Assembly: GCA_963740325.1 (NCBI GenBank) | Contig: CAVUDQ010000002.1 | Span: 118,773-182,772, forward strand | Source of the DNA: an uncultured Actinomycetota bacterium | Lineage (GTDB): Bacteria > Actinomycetota > Actinomycetes > Propionibacteriales > Nocardioidaceae | DNA: 64,000 bases | Direction of reading: 5' to 3' | In this document: positions 2,784 to 32,909 of the stretch, in pieces | Layout: every line of letters starts with the position of its first letter | How positions within the stretch are numbered: position 1 is the first letter of the stretch | Position numbers and translations under genes: made by a program | The notes under the pieces: model-generated | The model's database searches: none | What the model saw: only the letters and a program-made list of their open reading frames with translations | Told to the model about the DNA's origin: nothing

Positions 2784-3962
2784 TCAGCGGCGCAGCCACA
2801 GGGAGACGTGGCTCGGCTGCACGCTTCGCGCGGCCACGGAGCAGAGCTCGGCTCCGACCGCGCCGAGGTCCACCTCGTGGCCCAACCGGTTCGAGAACGC
2901 GGTCAGCGTCTGGGTGGCGTCGTACCTGCGGCGATAGAAGCGGCGGTCGACGACCGCCTGGATGCGCGCGCGAGCCGGTCGGAAGAGTGCGGCCACCGCG
3001 AGGGTGGACCCCGCGACGGCGAGGTCGTTGTCGCCGGTGAGCGGACCCAGCAGCACCCGCAGGCTCAGGATCGAGCCGACGTAGGTCACGAGGAGTGCGG
3101 CAGTCAACGTGCCGTAGACGAGCGTGCGGTTGATGACGACGTCGATGTCGTAGAGCCGGTACCGCAGGATCGCGAACCCGGTGGCGATGGGGATGGCGAC
3201 GGTGGAGGCGATCACGAACACCGCCCACCCGATGTCGTTCACGACTTGACCGGGGCCTTCCGGCAGCCACAGTCCGCTGGCGGACAGCGCGAGACCCGCG
3301 AACGGCAGCAGCGCTGCGTAGGTGAACCACTTCAGCTGCTGCCGCTCCGTTCCCCGCGACCGGCGGAACCGCAGGAGCAGGGACGCGAAGGAGAGCAGCA
3401 GGGTCGTCACGATGGCGTACGGGACGACGCCGGCCACCATCTCCAGCACGCGCTGAGCCGTCCCGTGCACTCCCAGCGGGTTGTCGACGGGGGCGTTGAC
3501 GGCCAGGTGCCCGGGGCCGAGGGCCAGGGTGAGGATCCCGACGACCGTCGTCACGAGAGCGATCCACTCGACGAGGCGCCAGCGTGACGAGAGCAGCCGC
3601 CCGTTCGGGAAGCGCAGCGGGAGGAAGATCACCACGATCGCCCACCCCGCGTAGACCAGCCAGCCGGTGACCCACGCGACGGCCACGTAGCCCGGGTTCG
3701 ACATCGTGACGACGTAGTCGTCGCCGACGACGGAGGTCGAGAGGGCCAGCGCGGCCACGAGCAGCAGCCACCCCACCGCGTTGCCGGGTTGCCGCGACGC
3801 GACGAGCGCGCCGACGGTCGCGTACCCCACGAGCGCGAGGAGCAGCGGGTAGTCGCCGTGGTGGGGCAGGTTGCCACCGAACCAGATCGTGACGATCGTG
3901 AGGGCGAGCCAGCACGACCACAGACCCCAGGCCAGGACCGAAGAGGCAGGTGGGCGGGACAT
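2784..3962 (-). CDS. Multi-pass membrane protein resembling the N-terminal sensor module of actinobacterial histidine kinases, without a kinase domain
   Basis: ATG at 3962 with upstream GGAGG; about 9 hydrophobic segments; motifs RQPGNAVGWLL, RFPNGRLLSSRWR, ERQQLKWF, ILRYRLYDIDVVINRTLVY, VDRRFYRRRYD. Confidence 0.75.
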   Translation of the reverse strand: MSRPPASSVLAWGLWSCWLALTIVTIWFGGNLPHHGDYPLLLALVGYATVGALVASRQPGNAVGWLLLVAALALSTSVVGDDYVVTMSNPGYVAVAWVTGWLVYAGWAIVVIFLPLRFPNGRLLSSRWRLVEWIALVTTVVGILTLALGPGHLAVNAPVDNPLGVHGTAQRVLEMVAGVVPYAIVTTLLLSFASLLLRFRRSRGTERQQLKWFTYAALLPFAGLALSASGLWLPEGPGQVVNDIGWAVFVIASTVAIPIATGFAILRYRLYDIDVVINRTLVYGTLTAALLVTYVGSILSLRVLLGPLTGDNDLAVAGSTLAVAALFRPARARIQAVVDRRFYRRRYDATQTLTAFSNRLGHEVDLGAVGAELCSVAARSVQPSHVSLWLRR

Positions 3963-4142
3963 GAAGGTGCCACCTCCCTCCAGCGTTGCCCTCCACGGTA
4001 GGACCAGCGGCGTCCGCGAATCGTTACGAGCGGCGATCCAGTGCCCGCGTGCGCAGGACCCATGGCAACCCGACGAGCCCCCCGCGCGTCTCCAGGGGTA
4101 TCGGCGGCTTCGGTCCGCAAGTACTGACGAGAGGCGAGCGTC

Positions 4143-4328
4143 ATGTCGGAGTTCGAGGAGGCAGTGCAGGACCGGCTGTCGCGGTTGCGGGTGGAGCTGG
4201 CCGACGCGCTCACCGACGACGACTACGCCGGCGCTGCCTGGGTCGAGTCGGCGATGCTGGATCTGCACCGCCTCCACCGGGAGAACGGCGCGGCTGTGCT
4301 GCCACCGCTGGGCGGTGTGTCCGAGTAG
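4143..4328 (+). CDS. Small helical hypothetical protein (61 aa)
   Basis: GAGAGG RBS before ATG; natural composition, unlike shadow ORFs. Confidence 0.6.
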   Translation: MSEFEEAVQDRLSRLRVELADALTDDDYAGAAWVESAMLDLHRLHRENGAAVLPPLGGVSE

Positions 4329-4413
4329 GTCCAGAGGTGCGCGTCCGGCACGGTGATCGGCCGTGGAACGCTGACGAGGGACCGCGTTCTGCGGATGGGC
4401 GTACCGTGAAGGC

Positions 4414-4680
4414 ATGCGTGGAGACCGCGTGGAGGTCGTGATCGACGCGGGTGGCGAGGTGCGCACCTACCAGATCGAGGCCACCCGGAACGGGCGACGC
4501 GTCGAGATCGAGACCGGGCGCGGCATCGTCACGGTCTCGGAGGTGACCCGCAGCGGCACGCCTGTCCGGACCGCCCGTTTCATGGCTAACCGGATTCTCG
4601 CGCTGGTCGAGCACCCGGCAGCGGACCAGAACATTGCCCGGGAGGTTCCGGAACCGCGGCCGATCCGGTCCTCCGGCTGA
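4414..4680 (+). CDS. Small beta-rich hypothetical protein (88 aa)
   Basis: GDRVEVVIDAGG...ATRNGRRVEI...EVTRSGTPVRTARFM...LALVEHP; globular-looking composition. Confidence 0.7.
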   Translation: MRGDRVEVVIDAGGEVRTYQIEATRNGRRVEIETGRGIVTVSEVTRSGTPVRTARFMANRILALVEHPAADQNIAREVPEPRPIRSSG

Positions 4681-6115: not shown

Positions 6116-8839
6116 TCAGTCGGTGACCCGGATCGTGCGGACCACCCGCTCCCGGTTCAACCCGACCTTCAAGGTCACCCGCTCCGTGCCCTCCCGTACG
6201 CCGTCGGCGCGGATCGGCATCGTGAGCGTTCCGGTCCGGTCGCCGGCGCGCAGCCGCTCGTACAGGTAGGCGCCGGCCCGGTGCAGCGGTACGTCGGGGT
6301 CGACTCCCCTGATGTAGTGACGCTCCAGCCACGGCTTCGGGACGTCGCCGACCGCCAGCCGGCGCCCGGGGCCGCGGCCGCGCACGACCTGGGCCACGAA
6401 GTAGGAGTCGTAGCCGGTCGCGGCGGAGAGCGTCACCCTGACCCGGAGGTCCTCGCCCTCCTCGACCCGCCTCGGAACCTGCACCCGGACCCGCGGAGCC
6501 GGGTCGTCGTCGAGCAGCACGAGCCGGCCGTCGTAGGCGTCGGTCATGGCGCCCCGGACCGCGAACGCCGAGAAGCTCGTGACCCTGCGGCCGCGGTCGT
6601 CGACGGTGTTGCCGGTGTACTCGTAGCGGATCGTGCCCTGGGTCTGGCCGGGAGCCAGGTCGAGGCGGAGCCGCTGCCGCGAGCGCCGGGACGCCCAGTC
6701 GACGACCCCGACGGTGAGCTGCGCCGGCTGGGTGACGGGGCCGGTCACGGTGAACGGCAGCCGGACCACCGACGTGCCCGGCCCGTCGCCCTCCTCGAGG
6801 GTGAGCGAGCCGAGGCTGACCAGGGGCAGGCGCTGGTCGGGGACTGCTGCCAGCGTGTCGGGTGCGGACGCGACGTCGAGGATCCACAGCCGGCCGTCCG
6901 AGCTGTCGCCGATGACGTCGACGCGCGTGACCCGGCTCAGGTCGATCCCCGTGGCGGTGCCGGGGTCGGCCACGACGGTCTGGGCCCAGCGCTTGCCGAC
7001 GTACCGGTCGAGCGGGAGCGCCCGGACGAGTCCCTCGCCGACGGGCGTGACCACGGCGGAGCTGCCCTCCGCGTCGGTGAGGCGGAGCCGGATCCGGATC
7101 CGGCCGTACCTGGGGTCGACGATCGAGCGCATCTCCAGGCGGCGGCTCGAGAGGTCGAGCGGCTCGTCGAACACCAGGCCGCCGGACTGGCCGGCCCGGG
7201 TCCAGGTCATCTCGAGCTCACGGCGGGGTGGCGCGAACTCCCCGTCGAGGTACCAGTGCGGTGCCTGGCCGTAGAGCCGGCCCGCCCGGCCACAGGCCCC
7301 GACCGAGCCGTCACTGACGACGCCCCGGCAGAAGGAGGTGTCGGCGCCGGACGTCAGCGACAGCCCGGTGTCCAGGGCAGGGCGCCGCAGCTCACGTCCG
7401 CCGCCGATGGCGTGCGAGCGGACGTCGGCGTCGCCGATCGACGGCGGGTGGACCACGGAACCGTCGAACAGCGGCAGGAGCTCCTGGGCGTCCTGGGCGA
7501 ACAGCTGCGCGGCACCCGCGACGTACGCGACCCCGACGTCGCGCTGTTCGGCGGCGTTCAGCCGGGTGCGCGAGTCCCGGCCGCACAGCCCGTTCCGGCT
7601 GAACCAGTCGTCCCAGGCCGGCGCCTGCGCGATGCGCGGGGTCCACTCGGTGTTGAAGAAGTTGTGGTTGGCGCCGAGCACCATCACCGAGCTCTTGAGC
7701 GAGGTGTCGTCGGCCACGAGGTCGCGGGCGCTGTCGGTGTAGCGCTGGCCCTGGAGGTCGGACACGTCGCCGTCGCAGTAGGGCAGCATCGTCACGGTGG
7801 GGACGTAGGGCGCGGTCTGGGTGCCGAAGTCGGTGGGCGCCAGCAGCACCTGGCCGACGACTCGGTACGCCGCGTCGAGAGGGATCTGGAGGGACGCTCG
7901 GTTGACGCCCTCACCGCCCCGGCTGTGGCCGACGAGCACGACCCGGGACAGGTCGACCCGGTGCTCGTCCGCGCGCTTCGCCCAGTGGTCGAGGTGTCGC
8001 TGCACGATCTGGGCGCGCGCGTCGGCGCCGCCGTCGGAGAGCCGGAAGTCCTGGGCGTTGATGCCGTTGACCCGGACCGACACGGTGGCGAAGCCCTGGG
8101 ACGCCAGCACCTGCTGGATGTAGTCGTAGCCGAGGTGGCTCGGGATCTCCTCGAGCGGCGGCCGGCACGGCCACTTCCAGTCGGCGGCACCGGAGTCCGT
8201 GGGGTCGTAGCAGTAGGAGTGGCGGCCATGGAGGAACAGCACCAACGGGCGCGGACCGGTGTCGGCGGACGGGGCGGGCTCGACGACGTGCCCGACCATC
8301 TCGATCGGGTGCTTCATCCGTGGCAGCTTCACCGGGTCGAGCTTGTAGTGGCTCGTCACCACGTCGTACTCACCGGGCTCGGCCGGGTCGTCGGCGAGCT
8401 GGGGGCTCCGCCTCGGCGTCGTCGCGGGGGCGGTCTCGTCGGTCCGGTCCAGCCCGGCCTGGTCGAGCCGGTCGCCGGACAGGACGACGTCGAGGTCGGC
8501 CGGGTCCGGCCGCTCGGTGGCCCTGACCTGGGTGACCACGGTCCGGCCGTCGGCCCGCAGGACCGGCACCCCCACCGGTACGCCGTCCAGCACGATCGTC
8601 GGCCGGTCGGACGTCACGGGGAGCCGGCGCGGCGACCGCCAGCTCACCTCGTAGCTGCCGGCACCGGTCCGGGCGACCTGCCACTGACCGGTCGTGCCGT
8701 CGCCGGAGGCCGCGCGCGCAGCCGCGGGCGGTGGAGCGGGGCTGGCGTCCGAGGCGCCGGGCACCACGCTCAGCCCGAGCGCGCCGACCAGGGCGGCGGC
8801 CAGCAGGGAACGAACCTGACGACGAGGGCGAGCGAGCAT
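6116..8839 (-). CDS. Large secreted alpha/beta-hydrolase with C-terminal beta-sandwich (Calx-beta-like) domains
   Basis: AAGGAG RBS before ATG 8839; Sec signal peptide; LVLFLHGRH, nucleophile elbow GHSRGG, CDGDV, GANHNFFNTEW. Confidence 0.75.
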   Translation of the reverse strand: MLARPRRQVRSLLAAALVGALGLSVVPGASDASPAPPPAAARAASGDGTTGQWQVARTGAGSYEVSWRSPRRLPVTSDRPTIVLDGVPVGVPVLRADGRTVVTQVRATERPDPADLDVVLSGDRLDQAGLDRTDETAPATTPRRSPQLADDPAEPGEYDVVTSHYKLDPVKLPRMKHPIEMVGHVVEPAPSADTGPRPLVLFLHGRHSYCYDPTDSGAADWKWPCRPPLEEIPSHLGYDYIQQVLASQGFATVSVRVNGINAQDFRLSDGGADARAQIVQRHLDHWAKRADEHRVDLSRVVLVGHSRGGEGVNRASLQIPLDAAYRVVGQVLLAPTDFGTQTAPYVPTVTMLPYCDGDVSDLQGQRYTDSARDLVADDTSLKSSVMVLGANHNFFNTEWTPRIAQAPAWDDWFSRNGLCGRDSRTRLNAAEQRDVGVAYVAGAAQLFAQDAQELLPLFDGSVVHPPSIGDADVRSHAIGGGRELRRPALDTGLSLTSGADTSFCRGVVSDGSVGACGRAGRLYGQAPHWYLDGEFAPPRRELEMTWTRAGQSGGLVFDEPLDLSSRRLEMRSIVDPRYGRIRIRLRLTDAEGSSAVVTPVGEGLVRALPLDRYVGKRWAQTVVADPGTATGIDLSRVTRVDVIGDSSDGRLWILDVASAPDTLAAVPDQRLPLVSLGSLTLEEGDGPGTSVVRLPFTVTGPVTQPAQLTVGVVDWASRRSRQRLRLDLAPGQTQGTIRYEYTGNTVDDRGRRVTSFSAFAVRGAMTDAYDGRLVLLDDDPAPRVRVQVPRRVEEGEDLRVRVTLSAATGYDSYFVAQVVRGRGPGRRLAVGDVPKPWLERHYIRGVDPDVPLHRAGAYLYERLRAGDRTGTLTMPIRADGVREGTERVTLKVGLNRERVVRTIRVTD

Positions 8840-9026
8840 GGCGGTCTCCTTGGGCACGGGGCTCACCACTGGGACGCGGTCGGCTAACCCCTGGGTTGGC
8901 CTCGCGCAGCCCTTTGTCGGGATGGTCCCCCGGGACGAGGGGGAGTGCCCAGAGTCGTCGGTCCCGACCTGCGCCGGAGTCGACGACCTACTGACACCTT
9001 CCGGTGCGGAGATCCGGCTCTGCGCA

Positions 9027-9067
9027 GGTGGTTTCGAGACGGGCCTTCACGGCACTCCTCCACCACC
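9027..9067 (+). repeat. Palindromic REP-like repeat, subtype A (intergenic)
   Basis: ggtggtttcgagacgggccttcacggcactcctccaccacc shares GTTTCGAGAC..CTCCTC..CCACC with copies at 10600 and 52617-52768. Confidence 0.7.
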
Positions 9068-23272: not shown

Positions 23273-24130
23273 ATGGGAGAGATCCAGCAGGCGGCGCAGC
23301 GCGCCCACAAGAGCGACGGCCTCGAGGTCGCCATCCGTGTCGGGCTCGTCGCCTACGGCGTCGTGCACGTCCTCATCGGCTGGCTGGCCGTCCAGGTGGC
23401 CTTCGGCGAGAAGTCCAAGCAGGCGTCCGGCACGGGTGCGCTGCACACCCTCGCCTCGCAACCGCTCGGGGCGGTGCTGGTCTGGGTGGTCGCGATCGGC
23501 CTGTTCGCCCTCGTCGTGTGGCGGGGCCTCGAGGCGTGGCAGGCCTGGCGCACCGAGGACGGCGCCGACCGGGTGAAGAGCATGCTCGGCCAGGTCCTCA
23601 AGGCCGTGATCTACGCCGTGCTCGCGTTCACGGCCCTCAAGACGGCGATCAGCGACACCACCGGCGGTGGTGGCGGTGGCGGGGGCGGCAAGGGCGGCGG
23701 CGGCAAGGGTGGCTCCGGGAGCACCGACAGCCTCACCGCCCAGCTCCTCGCGATGCCGGGCGGCGTGATCCTCGTCGCCGCGGTCGGCCTGGCGGTGATC
23801 GGCTACGCCGTCTACTACGTCTGGCAGGGCTGGTCCGACAAGTTCCTCGAGAAGCTCGACGGCAGCCCGAAGCGTCGCGAGGTCAGCAAGGCCTACCGGA
23901 TGCTGGGGAAGGCCGGGTTCATCGCGAAGGGCGTCGCCATCGGCGTGATCGGTGCGCTCCTCGTGTACGCCGCGCTCACCCACGACCCGCAGAAGTCGGC
24001 GGGTCTCGACCAGGCGCTGCAGGAGATCGCCCAGCAGCCCTTCGGGCAGCTGCTGCTCGTGGCAGTCGGGGCCGGGATCGCCTGCTACGGCGTCTTCTGC
24101 TTCGCCCGCGCCCGTCACGTGTCGACGTGA
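23273..24130 (+). CDS. DUF1206-like membrane protein with a Gly-rich loop
   Basis: Repeated TM modules RVGLVAYGVVH, LGKAGFIAKG, GLDQAL, QPFGQLLL; TAGGGT-N6-ATG. Confidence 0.85.
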   Translation: MGEIQQAAQRAHKSDGLEVAIRVGLVAYGVVHVLIGWLAVQVAFGEKSKQASGTGALHTLASQPLGAVLVWVVAIGLFALVVWRGLEAWQAWRTEDGADRVKSMLGQVLKAVIYAVLAFTALKTAISDTTGGGGGGGGGKGGGGKGGSGSTDSLTAQLLAMPGGVILVAAVGLAVIGYAVYYVWQGWSDKFLEKLDGSPKRREVSKAYRMLGKAGFIAKGVAIGVIGALLVYAALTHDPQKSAGLDQALQEIAQQPFGQLLLVAVGAGIACYGVFCFARARHVST

Positions 24131-24190
24131 CGACGGCCGCCCGGCGCCGCCACGGTGGCGCCGGGTCGGCCGTGATGCCCTCTCGAGGGA

Positions 24191-24430
24191 TCAGCGTCGG
24201 TGCATCAGGGCGCGTTCTTCGCGGTTGGTGCCGGGGAACAGCCCGGGCTCGACGTCGGGGTTGGGCTCGAAGTCGAAGCTGTACGGCTCGCTGATGGACG
24301 GGGACGCTTCCTCGTCCAGGACGAGGGTCGCGACGCCGTAGCCGGCGCCCGCGGCGAGCACGGCGCCGGCGAAGGCAACGGCGGCGGTGGTGGCTGAGAT
24401 GCGGTGCGGGTGGGTGGTGTGGACGGTCAT
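24191..24430 (-). CDS. Small single-pass membrane or secreted protein (79 aa), divergent from the SARP-STAND regulator
   Basis: GGAGAGG RBS; TM AAVAFAGAVLAAGAGYGVATLVL followed by an acidic Pro-rich tail. Confidence 0.65.
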   Translation of the reverse strand: MTVHTTHPHRISATTAAVAFAGAVLAAGAGYGVATLVLDEEASPSISEPYSFDFEPNPDVEPGLFPGTNREERALMHRR

Positions 24431-24503
24431 GACGGGTCCTCTCCGGGTGTGGTGGTCGTTGTCGGTGTGGTGTGCGTTGTCATGTCCCGGTTCTCGCCCA
24501 CTG

Positions 24504-24543
24504 CGGTACCGGGACGGTGCGTTGCCGGTAACGCCCCGGTAAT
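24504..24543 (-). promoter_or_regulatory. Four heptameric direct repeats at 11-bp period, candidate SARP binding site
   Basis: CGGT at 24504, 24515, 24526, 24537; minus-strand heptamers ATTACCG, GTTACCG, CGCACCG, GGTACCG. Confidence 0.6.
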
Positions 24544-24550
24544 GCCGCTG

Positions 24551-24579
24551 TTGACCGGTGACGCCGACGGGGTCACTGT
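24551..24579 (+). promoter_or_regulatory. Principal-sigma-type promoter of the regulator, leaderless
   Basis: TTGACC-N17-CACTGT-N6-ATG(24586). Confidence 0.55.
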
Positions 24580-24585
24580 CGAGCC

Positions 24586-27500
24586 ATGGGCATCGCGGTA
24601 CTGGGCCCGCTGGAAGTCGACGGGGGGAACGGCGCGTTGGCGCGTCGGGACCGGGTGGTGCTCGCGGTTCTCGCGATGCGTGCCGGCGAGGTGGTTCCCG
24701 CGGATCAGCTGGCCGACGCGCTGTGGCCCGAGGGGCCGCCCGCCACCTGGAGCAAGGCGCTGCAGGGCACGGTGGTCCGGCTGCGCAAGCTGCTGGGTGC
24801 CGCCGCCATCGAGACGGTGGGGCACGGGTATCGGCTGGCGTTGCCGCCGAGCGAGATCGACGCCCACGAGTTCGAGCGGTTGATGGGGCGGTCCCGGGAG
24901 CTGCTGGAGCTGGGTGAGCCGGAGCGGGCCGGGTACGGAGCGGCGGAGGCCCTGGGGCTGTGGCGCGGGACGCCGCTGGCCGACCTCGAGGAGTGGGAAC
25001 CGGGCCGGACGGAGGCCGACCGGCTGGAGGAGCTGCACCGCGACGCCGAGGAGCTGCGGGTCGATGCCGCGTTGCGCAGCGGCCGGCACGGCGAGGTACT
25101 GGGTGACGCGCGGCGGCTGGTCGAGCAGGCACCGCTGCGGGAGCGTCGGTGGGAGCTGTTGGCGCTTGCGCAGTACCGCGCGGGGCAGCAGGCCGACGCG
25201 CTGCGGAGCCTGCAGCAGCTGCGCCGGGTCCTGGTCTCCGAGCTCGGCCTGGACCCCGGTCCGGAGGTGCTCGCCCTCGAGCAGGCGATCCTGCGGCAGG
25301 ACCCCGATCTGTTGCCGCTGATCACCGTGGCGGAGCCCAGCGAGACCTGCCCCTACCTGGGCCTGGTGCCGTACGGGGTCGGCGACGCGGAGACGTTCTT
25401 CGGCCGGGAGGCCGAGGTCGAGGCGTGCCGACGCCGGTTGCCGAGCGCGGGTGTGGTGGCGGTGGTCGGCCCCTCGGGCTCGGGCAAGTCCTCGCTGGTC
25501 CGTGCCGGGTTGGCGGCCGCGCTGGAGCGGGACGGGGAGCGGGTGGTCGTGATCACGCCGGGGCGCCACCCGCTGGCGGCGCTGAGCGCCGTCCCGCCCA
25601 GGGGCCCGCCGGTGGTGGTGGTCGTGGACCAGGCCGAGGAGGCGGTGTCGCTGTGCGAGGACTCGGCCGAGGTGGGCCAGTTCTTCGAGGCGCTCGCCGC
25701 GCACGCCGCCGGGCACGCGACCGGGGGCGGACTGGTGCTGGCGCTGCGGGCCGACCGGTTGGGTGACCTGGTCGGGTACGGCGAGATGTCCCGGCTGGTG
25801 GAGCAGGGGCTCTACCTGCTCACGCCGATGACCGCGGAGTCGCTGCGGGCCGCGATCGAGGGGCCGGCGCGGCAGGCGGGGCTGCGGCTCGAGCCGGGCC
25901 TGGTCGAGCTCCTGGTCGCGGAGGTGGAGGGGCAGCCGGGTGCGTTGCCGCTGCTGTCCCACGCGCTGCGGCAGACCTGGGAGCGACGTGAGGGTGGGGT
26001 CCTGACTCTCGAGGGCTACCGGGCCACCGGCGGCATCCGGCAGGCCGTGGCCCGGTCGGCCGAGCGGGTGTATGAGGAGCTGCCGCTCGAGCAGCGGACG
26101 ATGCTGCGCGACGTGATGCTCCGGCTGGTCACCCCCAGCCCGGAGGGGGCGCCGATGCGCAGCCGGGTGCCGCGCCGGCTGCTGTCCACCGATCCCGCCC
26201 ACGACCAGCTGATGGAGCGGCTGGTCGCCGCCCGGCTGGTGACCAGCGACGACGGCGTGGTGGAGCTGGCCCACGAGGCGATAGCCCGGGCGTGGCCGCG
26301 GCTGCAGGGCTGGCTGGACGACGACACCGAGGGGCAGCGGGTGCTGCGGCACCTCTCGGTCGCCGCCGACACCTGGGACACGATGGGGCGGCCCGACGAC
26401 GAGCTCTACCGCGGCACCCGCCTGGCGCAGGCGCTCGAGTGGCGCGCCCGGGCTGCGCCCGACCTGACCCCGGTCGAGGTCGACCACCTGACGGCGGCGG
26501 AACGCCGCGCCCGCCAGGAGGAGCAGTCCGCCCTGGAGCAGGCGCGGTCCCAGGCCCGGGTGAACCGGCGGCTGCGCGGTCTGCTGGTGGGGGCAGCGAT
26601 GCTGCTGGTAGCAGCGATGGTGGCCGGCATCCTCGCCGTACGGCAGGCCAACCGCGCCGCCGACGCCACCGAGACCGCCGTGGCCCAGCGTGCCGCGGCG
26701 CAGGCGCAGCTCGCCGGCACCGTGGACCGGGCGCTCGCGCTGGCGGCCGCCGCCCATCACGTCGAGCAGTCGTCGGAGTCGCGCGCCGGACTGTTGGCCG
26801 CCCTGGCCCGGATCCCGCAGCTGAGCGCGGTGCGGCCGAGGGGCGGCGTCTTCCTGGAGGCCAGCCCGGACGGCCGCACCCTGGTCACCCTCGACACCGA
26901 CCACCGGTTCTGGTTCCACGACACGAGCACCCTCGAGCTCGTGGGCGGGTACGACCCGTACCCCGATCGCGACGTGCACGGGATCACCTCCAACGGGTCC
27001 CACCTCGCTTTCGACGCCGACGGGACCCGGCTGGCGGTCGCCCTGCTCGACGTGACCGACGGCGTCGTCGAGGTGCTCGACCCCGCGACGTACGAACCGG
27101 TTGCCGCCCAGCCGGGTGGTCAGCCCGACGGTGCTCTCCCCATCGACGTCAAGCTCAGTGCCGATGGCCGCTACCTCGCGGTCAGCGTGGCACTGCTCGA
27201 GTCCTCTGCCGGGCAGGGGCACTGGGTCTACGTGTGGGACCTGACGCGGCCGGAACAGCCGCTGCGCCGGATCGAGATGCCCAGCGACACCTTCCACATC
27301 GACTTCTCGCACGATGGCCGGCTGCTCTACGCCGCCCCGGGCAGCCAGTCCGGCGCCGCGGGCACGGGCCTGCGGGTCTACGACGTGCGGACCGGGCAGC
27401 TGACCGACCGGCGTGGCGGCGGCGGCCAGGGGCTCGAGCTCAGCCCGGACGGCCGGACGCTGGCCTACGGTCAGGGGGACGAGGTCTTCCTCTCCGACGC

Positions 27501-28803
27501 GGCGACCGGCGACATCACGCACCGGTTGCGCGGGGCCGAGGGGGTGGCGCGGATCGCGTTCTCGACGGGCGGCCGCTTGGTCGCCGCGGTGTCCGATGCT
27601 GCGTATGTCTGGGAGACGCACTCCGGCCGGTTGCTGGAGAAGATCCCTCTCGAGGCGCCGACGCTCGACCTCGCGTTCGACACGTCCGGTGACCGGCTCT
27701 TCGTGCCGTCGGACGGCCGGCTGCTCGCCCTCGACCTCACCGGCGCCAACCGCTACGTGCAGCGGATCTCGGATGCCGACCCAGACCCGCCACCGGTGGG
27801 TACCGGATTCCGGTACGCCTCCCCGTACGTGCCGATTGCCGCGCGCAACGGTCCGATCACCACGTCGGGAAGGGTGAACACCTTGGAGGACCTGCAGTTC
27901 GAGCCCCGGAGGACCGGTGGGACCACCGCCCGACTCGGCCTCAGCGGTCTGGGCAACACCTACGACTCCCACGCCTGGTCACCCGACCGTCGCCACCTCG
28001 CCTACGGCGACCCCAACGGACGGATGCGGATCGTCGACTGGCGCGCTGGGACGGAGATCGCTCGCCGCAGGTTCCCGGTCCGACAGCTCGCCTACACCTC
28101 GGACGGGACCCGCATCCTCGCCGGGCGGCCCTCTGGCCTCGTCATGCTGGATGCCCGCACCCTGCGCGAGACCACGGAGCTGCTCTCGCTCCCGGACCGA
28201 CTGATCATCCACGCCGATGCCGGTCCCGGTGACGACACCGCCGTCGTCGTGACCGCCCAGGACACCGGCGCCGCCCGCGACCTGTTCACGGTGGCGGACC
28301 GCTGGCTCCTGATCGACCTGCAGACAGGGGACACGCTGCGGGAGGGGCGGCTGCACGCTTCGGCATCTTCGATGGCCGTGTCGCCGGACCGCACCAGGAT
28401 GGCGGCTGCCTCCGACGGTGCCGTGGAGGTCGTCGACCTGCGCTCCGGCGAGTCGACGGTGTCTACCGAGACCAGCACCGCCGCCAAGGCGGAAGGAGGG
28501 GTCACCTTCTCACCTGACGGTGCGCTGCTGGCTTCCGCCGACGTCCTCGGCGACGTGAGCCTGTGGGACGGCACCACGGGAGCGCCGCTCGGCACCGTCC
28601 ACGTGGGGGAGGACGCCACGGTACCGGTGTTCCTCGACAACCGGCAGCTGCTGCTGCCCTATCCCGACGGCTCGACGTTCGTGTGGGACACCAGCGCGCA
28701 GTACGCCGTGGACACGGCCTGCCGGATCCTCGGCCGCGGGCTGAGCCGCGAGGAGTGGCGGGTGGCTTTCGGCGACCGACCGTTCGAGGAGGTGTGCGGG
28801 TGA
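24586..28803 (+). CDS. AfsR/SARP-type regulator: wHTH + BTAD + nSTAND NTPase + WD40-like beta-propeller
   Basis: IAVLGPLEV, ALGLWRGTPL, PLRERRWELLALAQYRAGQQADAL, GLDPGPE, CPYLGL, Walker A GPSGSGKSS, VVVDQAEE, PGALPLLSHAL, a TM-like segment, then repeated FSPDG/LWD blades. Confidence 0.9.
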   Translation: MGIAVLGPLEVDGGNGALARRDRVVLAVLAMRAGEVVPADQLADALWPEGPPATWSKALQGTVVRLRKLLGAAAIETVGHGYRLALPPSEIDAHEFERLMGRSRELLELGEPERAGYGAAEALGLWRGTPLADLEEWEPGRTEADRLEELHRDAEELRVDAALRSGRHGEVLGDARRLVEQAPLRERRWELLALAQYRAGQQADALRSLQQLRRVLVSELGLDPGPEVLALEQAILRQDPDLLPLITVAEPSETCPYLGLVPYGVGDAETFFGREAEVEACRRRLPSAGVVAVVGPSGSGKSSLVRAGLAAALERDGERVVVITPGRHPLAALSAVPPRGPPVVVVVDQAEEAVSLCEDSAEVGQFFEALAAHAAGHATGGGLVLALRADRLGDLVGYGEMSRLVEQGLYLLTPMTAESLRAAIEGPARQAGLRLEPGLVELLVAEVEGQPGALPLLSHALRQTWERREGGVLTLEGYRATGGIRQAVARSAERVYEELPLEQRTMLRDVMLRLVTPSPEGAPMRSRVPRRLLSTDPAHDQLMERLVAARLVTSDDGVVELAHEAIARAWPRLQGWLDDDTEGQRVLRHLSVAADTWDTMGRPDDELYRGTRLAQALEWRARAAPDLTPVEVDHLTAAERRARQEEQSALEQARSQARVNRRLRGLLVGAAMLLVAAMVAGILAVRQANRAADATETAVAQRAAAQAQLAGTVDRALALAAAAHHVEQSSESRAGLLAALARIPQLSAVRPRGGVFLEASPDGRTLVTLDTDHRFWFHDTSTLELVGGYDPYPDRDVHGITSNGSHLAFDADGTRLAVALLDVTDGVVEVLDPATYEPVAAQPGGQPDGALPIDVKLSADGRYLAVSVALLESSAGQGHWVYVWDLTRPEQPLRRIEMPSDTFHIDFSHDGRLLYAAPGSQSGAAGTGLRVYDVRTGQLTDRRGGGGQGLELSPDGRTLAYGQGDEVFLSDAATGDITHRLRGAEGVARIAFSTGGRLVAAVSDAAYVWETHSGRLLEKIPLEAPTLDLAFDTSGDRLFVPSDGRLLALDLTGANRYVQRISDADPDPPPVGTGFRYASPYVPIAARNGPITTSGRVNTLEDLQFEPRRTGGTTARLGLSGLGNTYDSHAWSPDRRHLAYGDPNGRMRIVDWRAGTEIARRRFPVRQLAYTSDGTRILAGRPSGLVMLDARTLRETTELLSLPDRLIIHADAGPGDDTAVVVTAQDTGAARDLFTVADRWLLIDLQTGDTLREGRLHASASSMAVSPDRTRMAAASDGAVEVVDLRSGESTVSTETSTAAKAEGGVTFSPDGALLASADVLGDVSLWDGTTGAPLGTVHVGEDATVPVFLDNRQLLLPYPDGSTFVWDTSAQYAVDTACRILGRGLSREEWRVAFGDRPFEEVCG

Positions 28804-31553: not shown

Positions 31554-31625
31554 CACACGGGCCGTCTGGGTAGTGTGCCGGGAGGGCCACCAGCCCCCGG
31601 GGTGGCCACGACGGAGGAGTCTCGG

Positions 31626-32909
31626 ATGTCACACATGCCTGCCCACGACCCGCGTCGCGGTGAACGCAGTGAGCCGCTGCCGCCCGCCGACGACCCGCTC
31701 AACGGCCCGCTGACCCGGCCCACGCCCCCCGCGACGGAGTCCCGTCCTGAGTCCGACCCGCCGGCCGCTGCCGAGCCGGCAGCCGCCGAGCCGGCACCCG
31801 CCGAGCAGGCAGCCGCCCAGCCGGCAGCCGCCGAGCCGGCACCCACCGAGCCGGTCGCCCCCGAGCCGCCGCGACAGACCCCGCCGGCCTCACCGCCGCC
31901 GACCGCGGCTGCGCAGGCCCCCGCACGTCCTTCGTGGGCCGAGGAGCCCGCGCCGGAGCCCGAGGTGCCCCGCTTCATGTCGGCCACCGACTTCCTGGAG
32001 CGGCGCTCCGAGAGCGTCGGCTACGGCCCGCCGACCTGGGGTTGGCGGGGCAGGCTCCACCGCTGGACCGGCGGCACGATCAGCCCGCAGATGGGGCCGG
32101 AGGAGAAGCAGCACTCCCGCGACCGGGCCGCCATCCAGCGGGCCTTCGACGGGCCGCGCACGATCGTCTTCCTCAATCCCAAGGGCGGGGCCGCCAAGAC
32201 CACGAGCGTGCTGGTTGCCGGCTACACCTTCGGGACGGTCCGCGGCGGCGGCGTGGTGGCGTGGGACAACAACGAGACCCGGGGCACCCTCGGCATCCGC
32301 GGCCAGCGCGCCGGCCACGGCAACACCACCCGCGAGCTGCTCGAGGACCTCGAGCGCTTCAACGACGTCTACCAGGCCCGCATCGGCGACCTGGGCGCCT
32401 TCGTACGCTCGCAGGGCGACGCCCACTTCGACGTCCTGGCCTCCGACGAGCGGCCCGACGTGACCGGCACCATCCGTGCATCCGACTTCACGGCGGTCCA
32501 CCAGCTGCTCGAGCGGTTCTACCGGCTGATCCTGGTCGACACCGGCAACAACATGCGGGCCGAGAACTGGCTGGCGGCAGCCGAGACGGCCGACCTGCTG
32601 GTGGTGACCACCACGATGCGTGAGGACACCGGCTACTCCGGACTGTGGATGCTGGACGCGCTGCAGGACGCCGGCTACCAGGACCTCAAGCACAAGACCA
32701 TCACCGTGCTGTCCGAGCCGTCGTCGCACGTCGACGAGCAGCTCGCCCAGGACATGGTCGACGTCTACGAGCAGCGCACCAAGGCGGTGTTCCGGGTGCC
32801 CTACGACCCGGCGCTGGTGTCGGGCTCGGTCATCCCCTACGAGCAGCTCACCGAGGAGACCCGGATGGCATGGGTACGCGCCTGCGCGGCGATGGCCGGA
32901 CAGCTCTGA
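31626..32909 (+). CDS. MinD/ParA-like ATPase with a disordered Pro/Ala/Glu N-terminus
   Basis: Deviant Walker A NPKGGAAKTT, WDNNETRGTL, ILVDTGN, PYDPAL. Confidence 0.8.
   Translation: MSHMPAHDPRRGERSEPLPPADDPLNGPLTRPTPPATESRPESDPPAAAEPAAAEPAPAEQAAAQPAAAEPAPTEPVAPEPPRQTPPASPPPTAAAQAPARPSWAEEPAPEPEVPRFMSATDFLERRSESVGYGPPTWGWRGRLHRWTGGTISPQMGPEEKQHSRDRAAIQRAFDGPRTIVFLNPKGGAAKTTSVLVAGYTFGTVRGGGVVAWDNNETRGTLGIRGQRAGHGNTTRELLEDLERFNDVYQARIGDLGAFVRSQGDAHFDVLASDERPDVTGTIRASDFTAVHQLLERFYRLILVDTGNNMRAENWLAAAETADLLVVTTTMREDTGYSGLWMLDALQDAGYQDLKHKTITVLSEPSSHVDEQLAQDMVDVYEQRTKAVFRVPYDPALVSGSVIPYEQLTEETRMAWVRACAAMAGQL
31770..31868 (+). repeat. Coding 15-bp tandem repeat (about 6.5 units)
   Basis: gccgagccggca(g/c)cc units encoding AEPAA/AEPAP/AEQAA/AQPAA/AEPAP/TEPVA. 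Confidence 0.85.

What the first reader, a model, noticed from the sequence alone, without database searches (positions are those of the whole stretch)
24191..28803. SARP-nSTAND-beta-propeller receptor paired with a divergent 79-aa membrane microprotein: a possible one-component sensing module
The 1405-aa protein joins a DNA-binding SARP/BTAD head, a STAND NTPase, a hydrophobic TM-like segment (LLVGAAMLLVAAMVAGILAV) and a long propeller that may face outward. This is an NLR-like ligand-sensing activator layout. The only divergent gene is a tiny single-TM protein whose upstream region carries SARP-type repeats. No biosynthetic cluster, the usual SARP target, is nearby. Inference: the receptor switches on the microprotein, which may be its effector, ligand or feedback partner.
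Basis: partly seen in the sequence, partly recalled or inferred. Interest (0 to 1): 0.66.

Follow-up and report, generated by a model that had tools for sequence, protein, structure and literature searches.

The report
Membrane-spanning SARP-STAND receptor with microprotein partner
A soil actinobacterium encodes a very large regulator that appears to span the membrane, with a sensor outside and an ATP switch plus DNA-binding head inside. It sits back-to-back with a tiny membrane-protein gene, separated by a conserved binding-site array, and the pair travels together between genomes, so it looks like an uncharacterised outside-to-gene signalling module.

Summary
ORF 24586-28803(+) encodes a 1405-aa protein. 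It has an OmpR-type wHTH, BTAD and a full-length nSTAND1 NTPase, then one strongly hydrophobic helix (aa 663-686), then a tandem WD40 double propeller. ORF 24191-24430(-) encodes a real, conserved 79-aa single-TM protein.

New results:
- The two genes form a divergent pair in at least 7 distinct loci across at least 5 genomic contexts.
- The 155-bp spacer holds four 11-bp-phased CGGTAAY heptamers, unique in the 64 kb. They lie 8 bp from a -10-like hexamer facing the small gene and abut the TTGACC -35 of the regulator's own apparently leaderless promoter.
- More distant homologues keep this cassette. Their divergent genes differ, and the N termini of the 141-aa, VCPO-like and 199-aa partners look like signal peptides.
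- The cytoplasmic half is 95% identical to that of a non-syntenic locus whose propellers are only 31% identical, which indicates sensor swapping.
- nSTAND1 followed by a hydrophobic helix also occurs with kinase heads and with heads that look like trypsin-type protease and TIR domains.

Most likely mechanism (inferred): an outside signal triggers STAND oligomerisation, the SARP heads bind the array, and the microprotein gene is activated together with autoregulation. The microprotein's role is unresolved. I rate it a new variant of known kinds (AfsR-AfsS, ToxR-ToxS) and moderately to highly interesting.

The parts
24586..28803 (+). Regulator gene, 1405 aa: SARP head, nSTAND1 NTPase, single TM helix, tandem WD40 propellers
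   Evidence: ORF and translation; Pfam; more than 6800 homologues, many with the same architecture in Nocardioidaceae, Kribbella and Jiangellaceae
24634..25293 (+). SARP module: OmpR-type winged helix (aa 17-84) plus BTAD (aa 91-236)
   Evidence: Pfam. PDB sequence hits to EmbR 2fez (E 2e-26) and AfsR 8k60 (E 2e-24) over aa 4-303
25351..26397 (+). nSTAND1 NTPase (aa 256-604), with Walker A at 25468-25494 and Walker B at 25612-25641
   Evidence: Pfam PF20703, E 3.4e-106, full-length match; motifs located
26572..26643 (+). Predicted transmembrane helix (aa 663-686). The flank on its N side is net +5 and the flank on its C side is neutral
   Evidence: Single hydropathy peak, conserved in 15 of 15 homologues, with charge asymmetry. 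It lies within a long predicted helix spanning aa 641-709
26821..28689 (+). Tandem beta-propeller sensor, predicted to be extracytoplasmic
   Evidence: AF2 model of aa 640-1405: pLDDT 88.3, pTM 0.85. Foldseek best matches are double WD40 propellers: 2ymu, Pwp2, Aip1, and Apaf-1 at TMq 0.43
28690..28800 (+). C-terminal helical cap with invariant Cys1379 and Cys1404
   Evidence: Invariant columns in A1 and A4; helices at the C terminus of the model; cysteine count after the TM is even in 15 of 15 homologues
24191..24430 (-). Microprotein gene, 79 aa. Parts: His-rich N tail (24395-24430), TM helix aa 13-38 with a Gly/Ala patch (24317-24394), variable linker (24245-24316), near-invariant C-terminal motif GLFPGTNREERALMHRR (24194-24244)
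   Evidence: AF2 gives a TM helix at 13-38 and a short helix at 69-76. pN/pS is 0.70, 1.05 and 0.42 for N tail plus TM, linker and C motif
24437..24444 (-). Shine-Dalgarno-like GGAGAGGA, 6 nt upstream of the microprotein ATG
   Evidence: Read directly from the sequence
24504..24543 (.). Heptamer array on an 11-bp period: CGGTACC, CGGTGCG, CGGTAAC, CGGTAAT. A degenerate fifth unit, CTGTTGA, lies at 24548-24554. This is the candidate SARP operator
   Evidence: Unique in the window, 0.02 expected by chance. CGGT/GGT cores are invariant in 8 aligned loci. Equivalent arrays start at -82 to -84 from the regulator ATG in L020, L022 and L024, and an array is present in L025
24483..24495 (-). Predicted microprotein promoter core. 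A -10-like GAGAAC (24490-24495) lies 8 bp after the last heptamer, and a predicted start at A24483 lies 6 nt further on
   Evidence: The pattern ACCG-N8-GA(G/C)AAC-N6-A holds in 8 of 8 loci (ACCA in L001). It also holds in L024, and as CACAAC and AACAAC variants in L022 and L025. The geometry matches the published SARP rule (PMC11301090). No experimental start site is available
24551..24586 (+). Predicted promoter of the regulator: -35 TTGACC (24551-24556), 17-nt spacer, -10-like CACTGT (24574-24579), then 6 nt to the ATG at 24586. This implies a leaderless mRNA
   Evidence: TTGACC and TCAnTnTC are invariant in 8 loci. No SD-like sequence precedes the ATG. The strict sigma-70 scanner did not call it
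24113..24165 (.). Two GC-rich hairpins between the convergent DUF1206 gene and the microprotein gene; likely terminators
   Evidence: Inverted repeats I1 and I2

Best explanation
This is a conserved two-gene signalling cassette.

The large protein is a single-pass membrane receptor that is also a transcription factor. Its SARP DNA-binding head and nSTAND1 NTPase switch lie in the cytoplasm. One TM helix follows, and a tandem WD40 double propeller lies outside the membrane.

Proposed mechanism:
1. A ligand or envelope cue binds the propellers.
2. This releases NTP-dependent oligomerisation of the nSTAND1 domains.
3. Oligomerisation clusters several SARP heads.
4. The clustered heads bind cooperatively to four in-phase CGGTAAY heptamers in the 155-bp divergent spacer.
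5. Bound 8 bp upstream of a weak -10, they recruit RNA polymerase and switch on the 79-aa microprotein gene.
6. The same array abuts the -35 of the receptor's own leaderless promoter, so the receptor also tunes its own level.

The microprotein has a cytoplasmic His-rich tip, a TM helix with a glycine patch and an outward tail ending in GT(N/D)RE.R.LMHRR. It is the dedicated membrane or exported output of the module and may feed back on the receptor.

Shown here: the architecture, conservation of the TM helix, conservation of the gene pair, conservation and geometry of the operator, and the modular exchange of sensors. Inferred: the topology, DNA binding, the direction of regulation, the signal and what the microprotein does.
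For: Architecture and NTPase motifs.

Topology. The TM peak is present in 15 of 15 homologues. The flank on its N side carries +4 to +6 and the flank on its C side -2 to +2. The cysteine count after the TM is always even, whereas before it the count is mixed. The ectodomain model is confident and is a double propeller of the Apaf-1 or Aip1 type.

Pair conservation. The small gene lies divergently next to an orthologous regulator in the window, L002, L003/L004, L005, L006/L007, L020 and L021. The flanking genes differ: efp-nusB-DUF1206; beta-lactamase and LysR; methyltransferase and SnoaL; M48 and BlaI; FMO and abhydrolase.

Operator. Four phased heptamers are unique in 64 kb. Their cores are invariant across 8 loci, and spacing to both promoter cores is fixed, while the 5'UTR varies between 35 and 54 nt. 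Published SARP sites are heptamers with 4-nt spacers, with the last repeat 8 nt from the -10 (PMC10972967, PMC11301090). PimR binds three CGGCAAG repeats with 4-nt spacers in its own divergent spacer (PMC3367932).

Generality. L022, L024 and L025 (44-50% identical regulators) keep the array, the TTGACS -35 and an NA(C/G)AAC -10-like hexamer. Their divergent genes are a VCPO/PAP2-like enzyme (twice), a 199-aa protein, and a 141-aa protein with an additional C-terminal TM. By eye, all have signal-peptide-like N termini; no signal-peptide predictor was run.
Against: - There are no transcript, binding or topology data. The organism is known only from soil metagenomes, and the metatranscriptome contigs were uninformative.
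- The -10-like hexamer lacks the usual T at its last position, and the sigma-70 scanner called no promoter.
- Heptamer orientation is ambiguous. CGGTAAC reads on the regulator's coding strand, as CGGCAAG does for PimR's target pimM. The reverse complement, CGTTACCG, resembles the AfsR box CGTT(C/T)ATCG facing the small gene.
- L001 retains the small gene without the adjacent regulator. L019 retains the regulator, with two heptamers, without the small gene.
- More distant homologues L023 and L012 lack the array.
- The comparative sample is small: about 12 loci out of more than 6800 homologues.
Confidence: 0.55

Rival explanations
1. Autoregulation only. The heptamer array serves the regulator's own promoter. 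The microprotein gene has an independent promoter and is a conserved neighbour, for example one carried along in the same recombination block. The regulator's real targets lie elsewhere in the genome.
For: The array directly abuts the TTGACC -35 of the regulator. It stays at -82 to -84 from the regulator ATG whatever the divergent gene is. L019 keeps the two proximal heptamers and the -35 although the small gene is gone. The heptamer orientation matches PimR repeats relative to their target (PMC3367932). L001 keeps the small gene without the adjacent regulator.
Against: The small-gene side also keeps an invariant ACCG-N8-GA(G/C)AAC-N6-A geometry in 8 of 8 loci (ACCA in L001), and analogous hexamers in L022, L024 and L025. 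This is the canonical SARP activation geometry (PMC11301090). The regulator's own promoter has a near-consensus -35 and so needs an activator less. The pair moves as a unit through at least 5 contexts.
Confidence: 0.17
2. Co-receptor model. The microprotein is an obligatory membrane partner of the receptor, comparable to ToxS for ToxR or to the EACC1 single-TM component of actinobacterial membrane conflict systems. It contacts the receptor's TM or juxtamembrane region and gates or stabilises it. On this view it is not simply an output.
For: The TM helix has a conserved central patch of small residues (AGAVLAAGAGYG), and the receptor TM is also rich in Gly and Ala. [quoted passage not shown] The conserved parts of the microprotein track the conserved cytoplasmic and TM half of the receptor, not the swapped propellers.
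Against: None of 31 family members has a significant Pfam match to any family. The gene order is divergent rather than a 5'-to-3' operon, and the partner has no caspase or cyclase. Related regulators carry quite different divergent genes (enzymes with signal-peptide-like N termini), which fits variable outputs better than a constant co-receptor. L019 lacks the microprotein gene.
Confidence: 0.22
3. Conflict or defence system. The nSTAND1 receptor senses an invader or competitor cue, and the induced single-TM microprotein is a membrane-damaging effector that causes growth arrest or abortive infection.
For: nSTAND1 was defined in predicted conflict systems (PMC8195603). The same nSTAND1-plus-hydrophobic-helix platform carries a Ser/Thr kinase head, and heads that by eye look like trypsin-type protease and TIR domains, in L009 and L014-L017. 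Sensor domains are swapped between nearly identical cytoplasmic halves, as in immune receptors. The linker of the small protein evolves neutrally to fast, with pN/pS 1.05.
Against: There is no meaningful PADLOC match. The sensor is predicted to be outside the cell, whereas known bacterial STAND defences sense phage proteins inside. The cassette sits among housekeeping genes and is syntenic in relatives. The alternative divergent genes are VCPO/PAP2-like enzymes, not toxins.
Confidence: 0.12
4. The hydrophobic segment is not membrane-spanning. The protein is a soluble cytoplasmic NLR-like regulator, and its WD40 propellers sense an intracellular ligand as in Apaf-1.
For: WD40 sensors of characterised STAND proteins are cytoplasmic. 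No signal peptide or experimental topology is available. One distant homologue (L010) has no hydrophobic peak.
Against: The 19-aa hydropathy mean is 2.25-2.92 in 15 of 15 homologues. Conserved Arg-rich flanks (RVNRRLRG) lie on the N side only, and the cysteine count after the segment is even in all 15. In the model the helix does not pack against the propellers.
Confidence: 0.07

Closest known systems
AfsR-AfsS of Streptomyces (large SARP with a STAND ATPase that activates a small-protein gene)
   Same: SARP head (wHTH plus BTAD), then a STAND-type NTPase, then a repeat sensor. The direct target is a small-protein gene. AfsR binds direct repeats 8 nt upstream of the -10 (PMC11301090). That afsS is adjacent to afsR and encodes 63 aa is from my own knowledge.
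   Different: AfsR uses NB-ARC plus TPR, is soluble and is controlled by Ser/Thr phosphorylation. Here the NTPase is nSTAND1, the sensor is a WD40 double propeller placed beyond a TM helix, and the small protein is membrane-anchored. The AfsR NCBIfam model scores 127 bits against a cut-off of 1430.
PimR/SanG/PolY-type SARP-LAL regulators
   Same: PimR binds heptameric direct repeats with 4-nt spacers (CGGCAAG; here CGGTAAY, 5 of 7 identical). The site lies in the divergent spacer between the regulator gene and its single target, and it does not overlap the -35 (PMC3367932).
   Different: These regulators are cluster-situated in antibiotic gene clusters, soluble, and have a LAL-type ATPase. Their target is another regulator gene, not a microprotein gene.
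ToxR-ToxS, TcpP-TcpH and CadC (membrane-bound one-component regulators)
   Same: Predicted topology: a cytoplasmic OmpR-type winged helix, one TM helix and an external sensor domain. ToxR and TcpP work with a small single-pass partner encoded next door (established knowledge).
   Different: They have no BTAD, no STAND NTPase and no propellers, and their partner genes are co-transcribed rather than divergent. Apart from the winged helix, no homology was detected here.
[quoted passage not shown] 2020 and 2021)
   Same: Prevalent in actinobacteria. They combine a small protein with one conserved TM helix containing a central glycine patch and a large multidomain protein that can include a STAND NTPase and repeats (PMC7159879, PMC8195603).
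   Different: The EACC1 partner has an N-terminal caspase or cyclase, and the genes are co-directional. Here the head is a DNA-binding SARP, the genes are divergent with an operator between them, and the microprotein matches no Pfam model.
Apaf-1 and other NLR-type STAND receptors
   Same: Tripartite logic of output domain, NTPase switch and repeat sensor. The fold is a tandem WD40 propeller (3shf, TMq 0.43).
   Different: Those receptors are wholly intracellular, and their output is recruitment of a protease or other effector. Here a TM helix separates the switch from the sensor, and the output is transcription.

Membership tests
SARP (Streptomyces antibiotic regulatory protein) family | N-terminal OmpR-type winged-helix DNA-binding domain | tested here: met
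   PF00486, aa 17-84, 31.0 bits against a cut-off of 26.2. Sequence hits to EmbR and AfsR structures over aa 4-303
SARP (Streptomyces antibiotic regulatory protein) family | BTAD (bacterial transcriptional activation domain) directly after the winged helix | tested here: met
   PF03704, aa 91-236, E 3.5e-34, profile positions 1-146 of 146
SARP (Streptomyces antibiotic regulatory protein) family | Target promoters carry heptameric direct repeats on an 11-bp period, with the last repeat 8 bp upstream of the -10 | tested here: met
   Four phased heptamers at 24504-24543. On the small-gene strand an 8-bp gap leads to GAGAAC. The arrangement is conserved in 8 loci. This is a sequence test only
SARP (Streptomyces antibiotic regulatory protein) family | The protein binds those repeats and activates transcription | not testable with these tools
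   Needs EMSA or footprinting and reporter assays
AfsR-type large SARP | Central NB-ARC ATPase and C-terminal TPR sensor | tested here: not met
   The NTPase is nSTAND1 and the repeats are WD40. The AfsR equivalog model NF053617 matches only aa 4-304, scoring 127 bits against a cut-off of 1430
nSTAND1 clade of STAND NTPases | Full-length match to the nSTAND1 profile with intact Walker A and Walker B motifs | tested here: met
   PF20703, E 3.4e-106, profile positions 1-378 of 379. GPSGSGKSS and VVVVVDQAEE located
ToxR-like membrane-bound one-component regulators | Cytoplasmic winged helix, single TM helix, extracytoplasmic sensor domain | tested here: inconclusive
   The predicted topology fits (single TM, positive-inside flanks, even cysteine count outside). 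Topology has not been measured, and the BTAD and STAND insert has no ToxR counterpart
EACC1 two-gene membrane conflict system | Small protein belonging to the EACC1 domain family | tested here: not met
   None of 31 family members had a significant Pfam match, even at a permissive threshold (E up to 10). Only the qualitative description fits (single TM with a central patch of small residues). Whether this Pfam copy holds an EACC1 model was not verified
EACC1 two-gene membrane conflict system | Downstream co-directional gene with an N-terminal caspase or cNMP cyclase | tested here: not met
   The partner has a SARP head and is divergently transcribed
Known anti-phage STAND systems (Avs and others in PADLOC) | Match to a defence-system protein model | tested here: not met
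   Only weak P-loop-level hits (mad8 at 5e-6, mad3 at 2e-5) and nothing for the small protein
Apaf-1-like tandem WD40 sensors | Two consecutive beta-propellers C-terminal to a STAND NTPase | tested here: met
   AF2 model with pLDDT 88. Foldseek hits to double propellers, including Apaf-1 3shf and 3sfz. This is fold-level resemblance only

The most novel reading that the evidence does not exclude
Actinobacteria and some other phyla may possess a family of transmembrane NLR-like receptors built as nSTAND1, TM helix and external propellers. These would carry information from outside the cell to a cytoplasmic STAND oligomerisation switch. Both ends appear exchangeable. The cytoplasmic heads include SARP and Ser/Thr kinase domains, plus heads that look like trypsin-type protease and TIR domains. 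The external sensors can be swapped by recombination just upstream of the TM. The SARP branch would be a self-contained outside-to-gene circuit. Receptor oligomers would read a multi-heptamer operator and switch on a dedicated exported product: here a 79-aa microprotein, elsewhere a VCPO-like enzyme. Paralogous receptors sharing one operator would funnel several external cues onto the same microprotein family.
Probability: 0.35. Interest if true: 0.8.

Novelty: new variant of a known kind. Interest (0 to 1): 0.62.

Why it matters
SARPs are treated as soluble, cluster-situated switches for antibiotic synthesis, and bacterial STAND/NLR proteins as intracellular sensors. This cassette suggests a third arrangement. 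It would be a membrane-spanning STAND receptor whose sensor faces outward and whose output is transcription of one dedicated small membrane protein, located far from any biosynthetic cluster.

If confirmed, it would provide three things:
- a compact and portable one-protein route from an external signal to a defined promoter;
- a natural example of how STAND oligomerisation could be coupled to a multi-repeat operator;
- a function-discovery handle for a conserved microprotein family, and for more than 6800 annotated but unstudied homologues of the regulator, many of which share its full architecture.

The sharp sensor-swap breakpoint also marks where such receptors might be re-engineered.

Tried and rejected
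They returned only 11 distant loci and 1 locus, so the neighbourhood survey relied on 12 exact-protein look-ups.
- One of those look-ups (P0008, Nocardioides coralli) found no record.
- RNA evidence: no RNA run exists for this organism. Two soil metatranscriptomes gave only short, mostly nonspecific contig matches. One 307-nt contig covers 24569-24762 but has no strand or end information, so no start site could be mapped.
- The strict sigma-70 and terminator scan found nothing in 24050-24700. The promoters proposed here rest on conservation and geometry.
Tail-propeller docking therefore remains untested.
- Pfam, NCBIfam and PADLOC gave nothing for the microprotein. The idea that it is an EACC1 member was dropped as a membership claim.
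- Whole-gene dN/dS for the small ORF is high (0.34-1.1) and does not by itself prove coding. Coding status rests on the in-frame length differences, the GC3 pattern, the SD sequence and region-specific constraint.
- The upstream ATG at the predicted start site was considered as the true start codon. This was rejected as a general rule because it is in frame in only 3 of 8 loci.
- A biosynthetic-cluster context was checked and not found.
Full report
**1. What is in the sequence**

The window is high-GC DNA (about 73%). Protein matches place it in the Nocardioidaceae, near Marmoricola and Nocardioides.

ORF 24586-28803(+) encodes a 1405-aa protein. Pfam gives the following domains:
- Trans_reg_C at aa 17-84;
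- BTAD at aa 91-236 (E 3.5e-34);
- a full-length nSTAND1 NTPase at aa 256-604 (E 3.4e-106);
- many WD40-type propeller families from about aa 800 to 1380.

Walker A (GPSGSGKSS, aa 295-303) and Walker B (VVVVVDQAEE, aa 343-352) are intact. By sequence, the only solved relatives of the N-terminal 300 residues are EmbR and AfsR.

ORF 24191-24430(-) encodes 79 aa. It has a coding-type GC pattern (0.69/0.54/0.91), and GGAGAGGA lies 6 nt upstream of its ATG.

The surrounding genes are housekeeping: SIMPL, efp, nusB, DUF1206, then the pair, then a class V aminotransferase, a pyridine-nucleotide disulphide oxidoreductase, an unknown gene, pyrR and pyrB. Further out lie aspS, alaS, mltG-like and aro genes. 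None of the roughly 30 scanned ORFs belongs to a biosynthetic cluster.

**2. The membrane helix and the outside domain**

A 19-residue hydropathy scan finds one peak in each of 15 homologues that are 44-100% identical to the window protein. The peak is always at the same place, with values of 2.25-2.92.
- The flank on the N side is Arg-rich (RVNRRLRG, net +4 to +6).
- The flank on the C side is about neutral.
- By the positive-inside rule, the SARP and NTPase half is cytoplasmic and the propellers are outside.
- The number of cysteines after the helix is even in all 15 proteins (2, 4 or 6), whereas before it the count is mixed.
- Cys1379 and Cys1404 are invariant.
- Even cysteine counts are typical of exported, disulphide-bonded actinobacterial proteins. 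That generalisation is from established knowledge.

An AF2 model of aa 640-1405 is confident (pLDDT 88.3, pTM 0.85). It shows one long helix (aa 641-709) that includes the TM segment, two short helices, a tandem propeller and a small C-terminal helical cap. Foldseek matches double WD40 propellers, including Aip1, Pwp2 and Apaf-1.

**3. The microprotein is a real, narrow family**

It has 34 homologues at 55-80% identity. A profile search of 1.84 billion representatives finds only about 33 small proteins.

The family plan is:
- N tip MT.HTAHPGHH;
- a TM helix with a central patch of small residues (LAGAVLA.GAGYG);
- LDE;
- a variable Pro/Thr-rich linker;
- a near-invariant extreme C terminus, GT(N/D)RE.R.LMHRR.

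AF2 gives a TM helix at aa 13-38, a disordered linker and a short helix at aa 69-76. All length differences among the eight aligned ORFs are in frame. pN/pS is 0.70 for the N tip plus TM, 1.05 for the linker and 0.42 for the C-terminal motif. The flanking charges favour N-in, C-out. That would place the conserved tail on the same side of the membrane as the propellers. No Pfam, NCBIfam or PADLOC model matches.

**4. The pair is conserved as a unit**

Looking up contigs that encode microprotein homologues, or regulator homologues, gives the following paired loci. In each, the microprotein gene lies divergently next to an orthologous regulator.

| Locus | Flanking context |
|---|---|
| window, L002 | efp-nusB-DUF1206 |
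| L003 (= L004) | beta-lactamase, LysR |
| L005 | methyltransferase, SnoaL |
| L006 (= L007) | M48 peptidase, BlaI |
| L020 (regulator 56%, microprotein 45% identical) | FMO, abhydrolase, ECF sigma factor |
| L021 | short contig |

There are two exceptions.
- L001 is syntenic with the window. It has a clean internal deletion equivalent to window 24611-28701. The spacer, the first codons and the last 36 codons of the regulator remain, along with an intact microprotein gene that is 80% identical.
- L019 has a 64%-identical regulator with an IS21 element upstream and no microprotein gene.

**5. The spacer is a conserved bidirectional control region**

An alignment of 8 spacers shows invariant CGGT or GGT cores at an exact 11-nt period. 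In the window these are CGGTACC (24504), CGGTGCG (24515), CGGTAAC (24526) and CGGTAAT (24537). A degenerate fifth unit overlaps the next element. The phased pattern occurs only here in 64 kb, against 0.02 expected by chance.

On the regulator side, an invariant TTGACC (24551-24556) is followed by 17 nt, then CACTGT, then 6 nt, then the ATG. No Shine-Dalgarno sequence is present. This suggests a leaderless mRNA from a promoter with a good -35.

On the microprotein side, all 8 loci keep ACCG-N8-GA(G/C)AAC-N6-A (ACCA in L001). The 5'UTR downstream of that motif varies between 35 and 54 nt.

The published rule for SARP sites is heptamers with 4-nt spacers on one face of the helix, with the last repeat 8 nt upstream of the -10 and overlapping the -35 (PMC10972967, PMC11301090). 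PimR binds three CGGCAAG repeats with 4-nt spacers in its own divergent spacer (PMC3367932). The geometry therefore fits SARP-dependent activation of the microprotein gene. It also fits upstream (class I-like) control of the regulator's own promoter.

Orientation arguments by analogy point both ways and do not settle which promoter is the main target.

**6. The cassette extends beyond the microprotein clade**

Regulators that are 44-50% identical keep the array (starting at -82 to -84 where measured), the TTGACS -35 and a -10-like hexamer of the form NA(C/G)AAC. Their divergent genes differ.

| Locus | Divergent gene(s) |
|---|---|
| L022 | VCPO/PAP2-like enzyme |
| L025 | 199-aa protein followed by a VCPO/PAP2-like enzyme |
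| L024 | 141-aa protein with a C-terminal TM helix |

By eye, all four of these products have signal-peptide-like N termini; no signal-peptide predictor was run. L019 keeps only the two heptamers next to the -35. L023 and L012 show no array.

I read this as a receptor family whose operator cassette drives variable divergent genes for what appear to be exported products. The microprotein is one such product. That favours an output role over an obligatory constant co-receptor. The sample is small, however.

**7. Modular exchange at both ends**

Against L003, the window protein is 95% identical in the SARP module and 95% in nSTAND1, but only 31% in the propellers. L005 and L006 behave the same way.

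At the DNA level, identity is 91-97% from about 24400 to 26400. It collapses just before the TM helix. On the other side it decays inside the microprotein gene.

The true syntenic orthologue, L002, is uniformly about 81% identical. That matches the 81-83% seen for the flanking housekeeping genes. The pattern recurs in three independent contigs from two studies, so it is not an assembly artefact.

This implies recombination or gene conversion. A common cytoplasmic-plus-operator block is joined to different external sensors.

Separately, nSTAND1 followed by a strongly hydrophobic helix occurs with other N-terminal heads (heads read from sequence by eye, not scanned against Pfam; whether propellers follow the helix was not checked in these loci):
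- heads with trypsin-like catalytic motifs in three Streptomyces loci;
- a TIR-like head in a Dehalococcoidia locus;
- a Ser/Thr kinase in a Chloroflexota locus.

The TM-containing STAND platform is therefore general, and the SARP version is its transcriptional branch.

**8. Mechanism and comparison**

My best reading is a membrane-spanning STAND receptor and transcription factor.
1. An external cue at the propellers licenses NTP-dependent oligomerisation.
2. Oligomerisation clusters the SARP heads onto the four-heptamer array.
3. The microprotein gene is activated, and receptor expression is adjusted.

The steps from ligand to transcription are inferred.

The closest analogues are:
- AfsR-AfsS, a STAND-SARP that activates a small-protein gene;
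- PimR, with heptamers in a divergent spacer;
- ToxR-ToxS, with the same topology and a small membrane partner;
- the EACC1 and nSTAND1 conflict systems of Kaur et al. (PMC7159879, PMC8195603);
- Apaf-1, with a tandem propeller sensor.

Membership in SARP and in nSTAND1 is met. Membership in AfsR-type large SARPs, EACC1 and known defence systems is not met.

**9. Verdict**

The regulatory link is supported by comparative geometry but is unproven. The microprotein's role remains open. Reviews of SARPs list small, medium, large (NB-ARC-TPR) and SARP-LAL classes but not this architecture (PMC10972967), although databases annotate thousands of such proteins. I rate it a new variant of known kinds, with interest about 0.6.

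Noticed in passing
window 24400-26500, compared with L003, L005 and L006: There is a sharp mosaic. A block of about 2 kb is 91-97% identical in DNA to a non-syntenic locus. The block covers the 5' part of the microprotein gene, the spacer, SARP and nSTAND1. Identity collapses just before the TM helix, and the propellers are only 31% identical. This is higher than the 81% seen with the true syntenic orthologue, which suggests gene conversion or exchange between receptor paralogues.
   Followed up: partly
L001 6708-7001 (equivalent to window 24611-28701): A syntenic relative has a clean internal deletion of about 4.1 kb in the regulator gene. The spacer, the first codons, the last 36 codons and an intact microprotein gene remain.
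   Followed up: partly
window 24481-24483 (-), and the same position in L001-L006 and L021: The predicted microprotein transcription start is the A of a conserved ATG (CATGAC in 7 of 8 loci). It is in frame in 3 loci, where it would add an MTTDH... extension. It is out of frame in 4 loci, where it opens a 12-18-codon uORF whose TGA overlaps the microprotein ATG. It is unclear whether this is a leaderless uORF, an alternative start codon or only a promoter element.
   Followed up: partly
L014, L015, L016 (Streptomyces); L017 (Dehalococcoidia); L009 (Aggregatilineales); L008 (Gaiellales): The nSTAND1 domain followed by a strongly hydrophobic helix also occurs with other N-terminal heads: trypsin-like protease motifs, a TIR-like head, a Ser/Thr kinase and an AAA-like head. 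The heads were read from the sequences by eye. Whether propellers follow the helix was not checked. This points to a general transmembrane STAND platform.
   Followed up: partly
L022 1428-2681 (-); L025 765-2841 (-): Two regulators that are only 45-50% identical to the window protein each have a VCPO/PAP2-like (haloperoxidase or phosphatase family) gene as the divergent partner behind the same heptamer cassette. Both products have signal-peptide-like N termini. In L025 a 199-aa unknown protein with a similar N terminus precedes it.
   Followed up: partly
L024 2389-2814 (-): A Kribbella-like homologue has a different small divergent partner. It is a 141-aa protein with a signal-peptide-like N terminus and a Gly-rich C-terminal TM anchor, placed behind CGGTATC heptamers.
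   Followed up: no
window 6116-9046 (-), 2784-4466 (-), 31575-32909 (+): Three sizeable ORFs with coding-type GC3 (976, 560 and 444 aa) have no Pfam match. The 444-aa ORF lies between the oxidoreductase gene and pyrR, inside the same syntenic block as the cassette, and a 348-aa gene with no Pfam hit sits at the corresponding position in L001.
   Followed up: no
window 24113-24165: Two GC-rich inverted repeats (CGTCACGT/ACGTGACG and CCCGGCGCCGCC/GGTGGCGCCGGG) lie between the convergent DUF1206 and microprotein genes. They are likely bidirectional terminators without a T tract.
   Followed up: no
window 24556-24562: An extra CGGTGAC heptamer lies inside the 17-nt spacer of the regulator's promoter, out of phase with the array (19 nt from the last unit). 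It is partly conserved, as CGGTAAC in L001 and L020. It could be an autorepression site.
   Followed up: no
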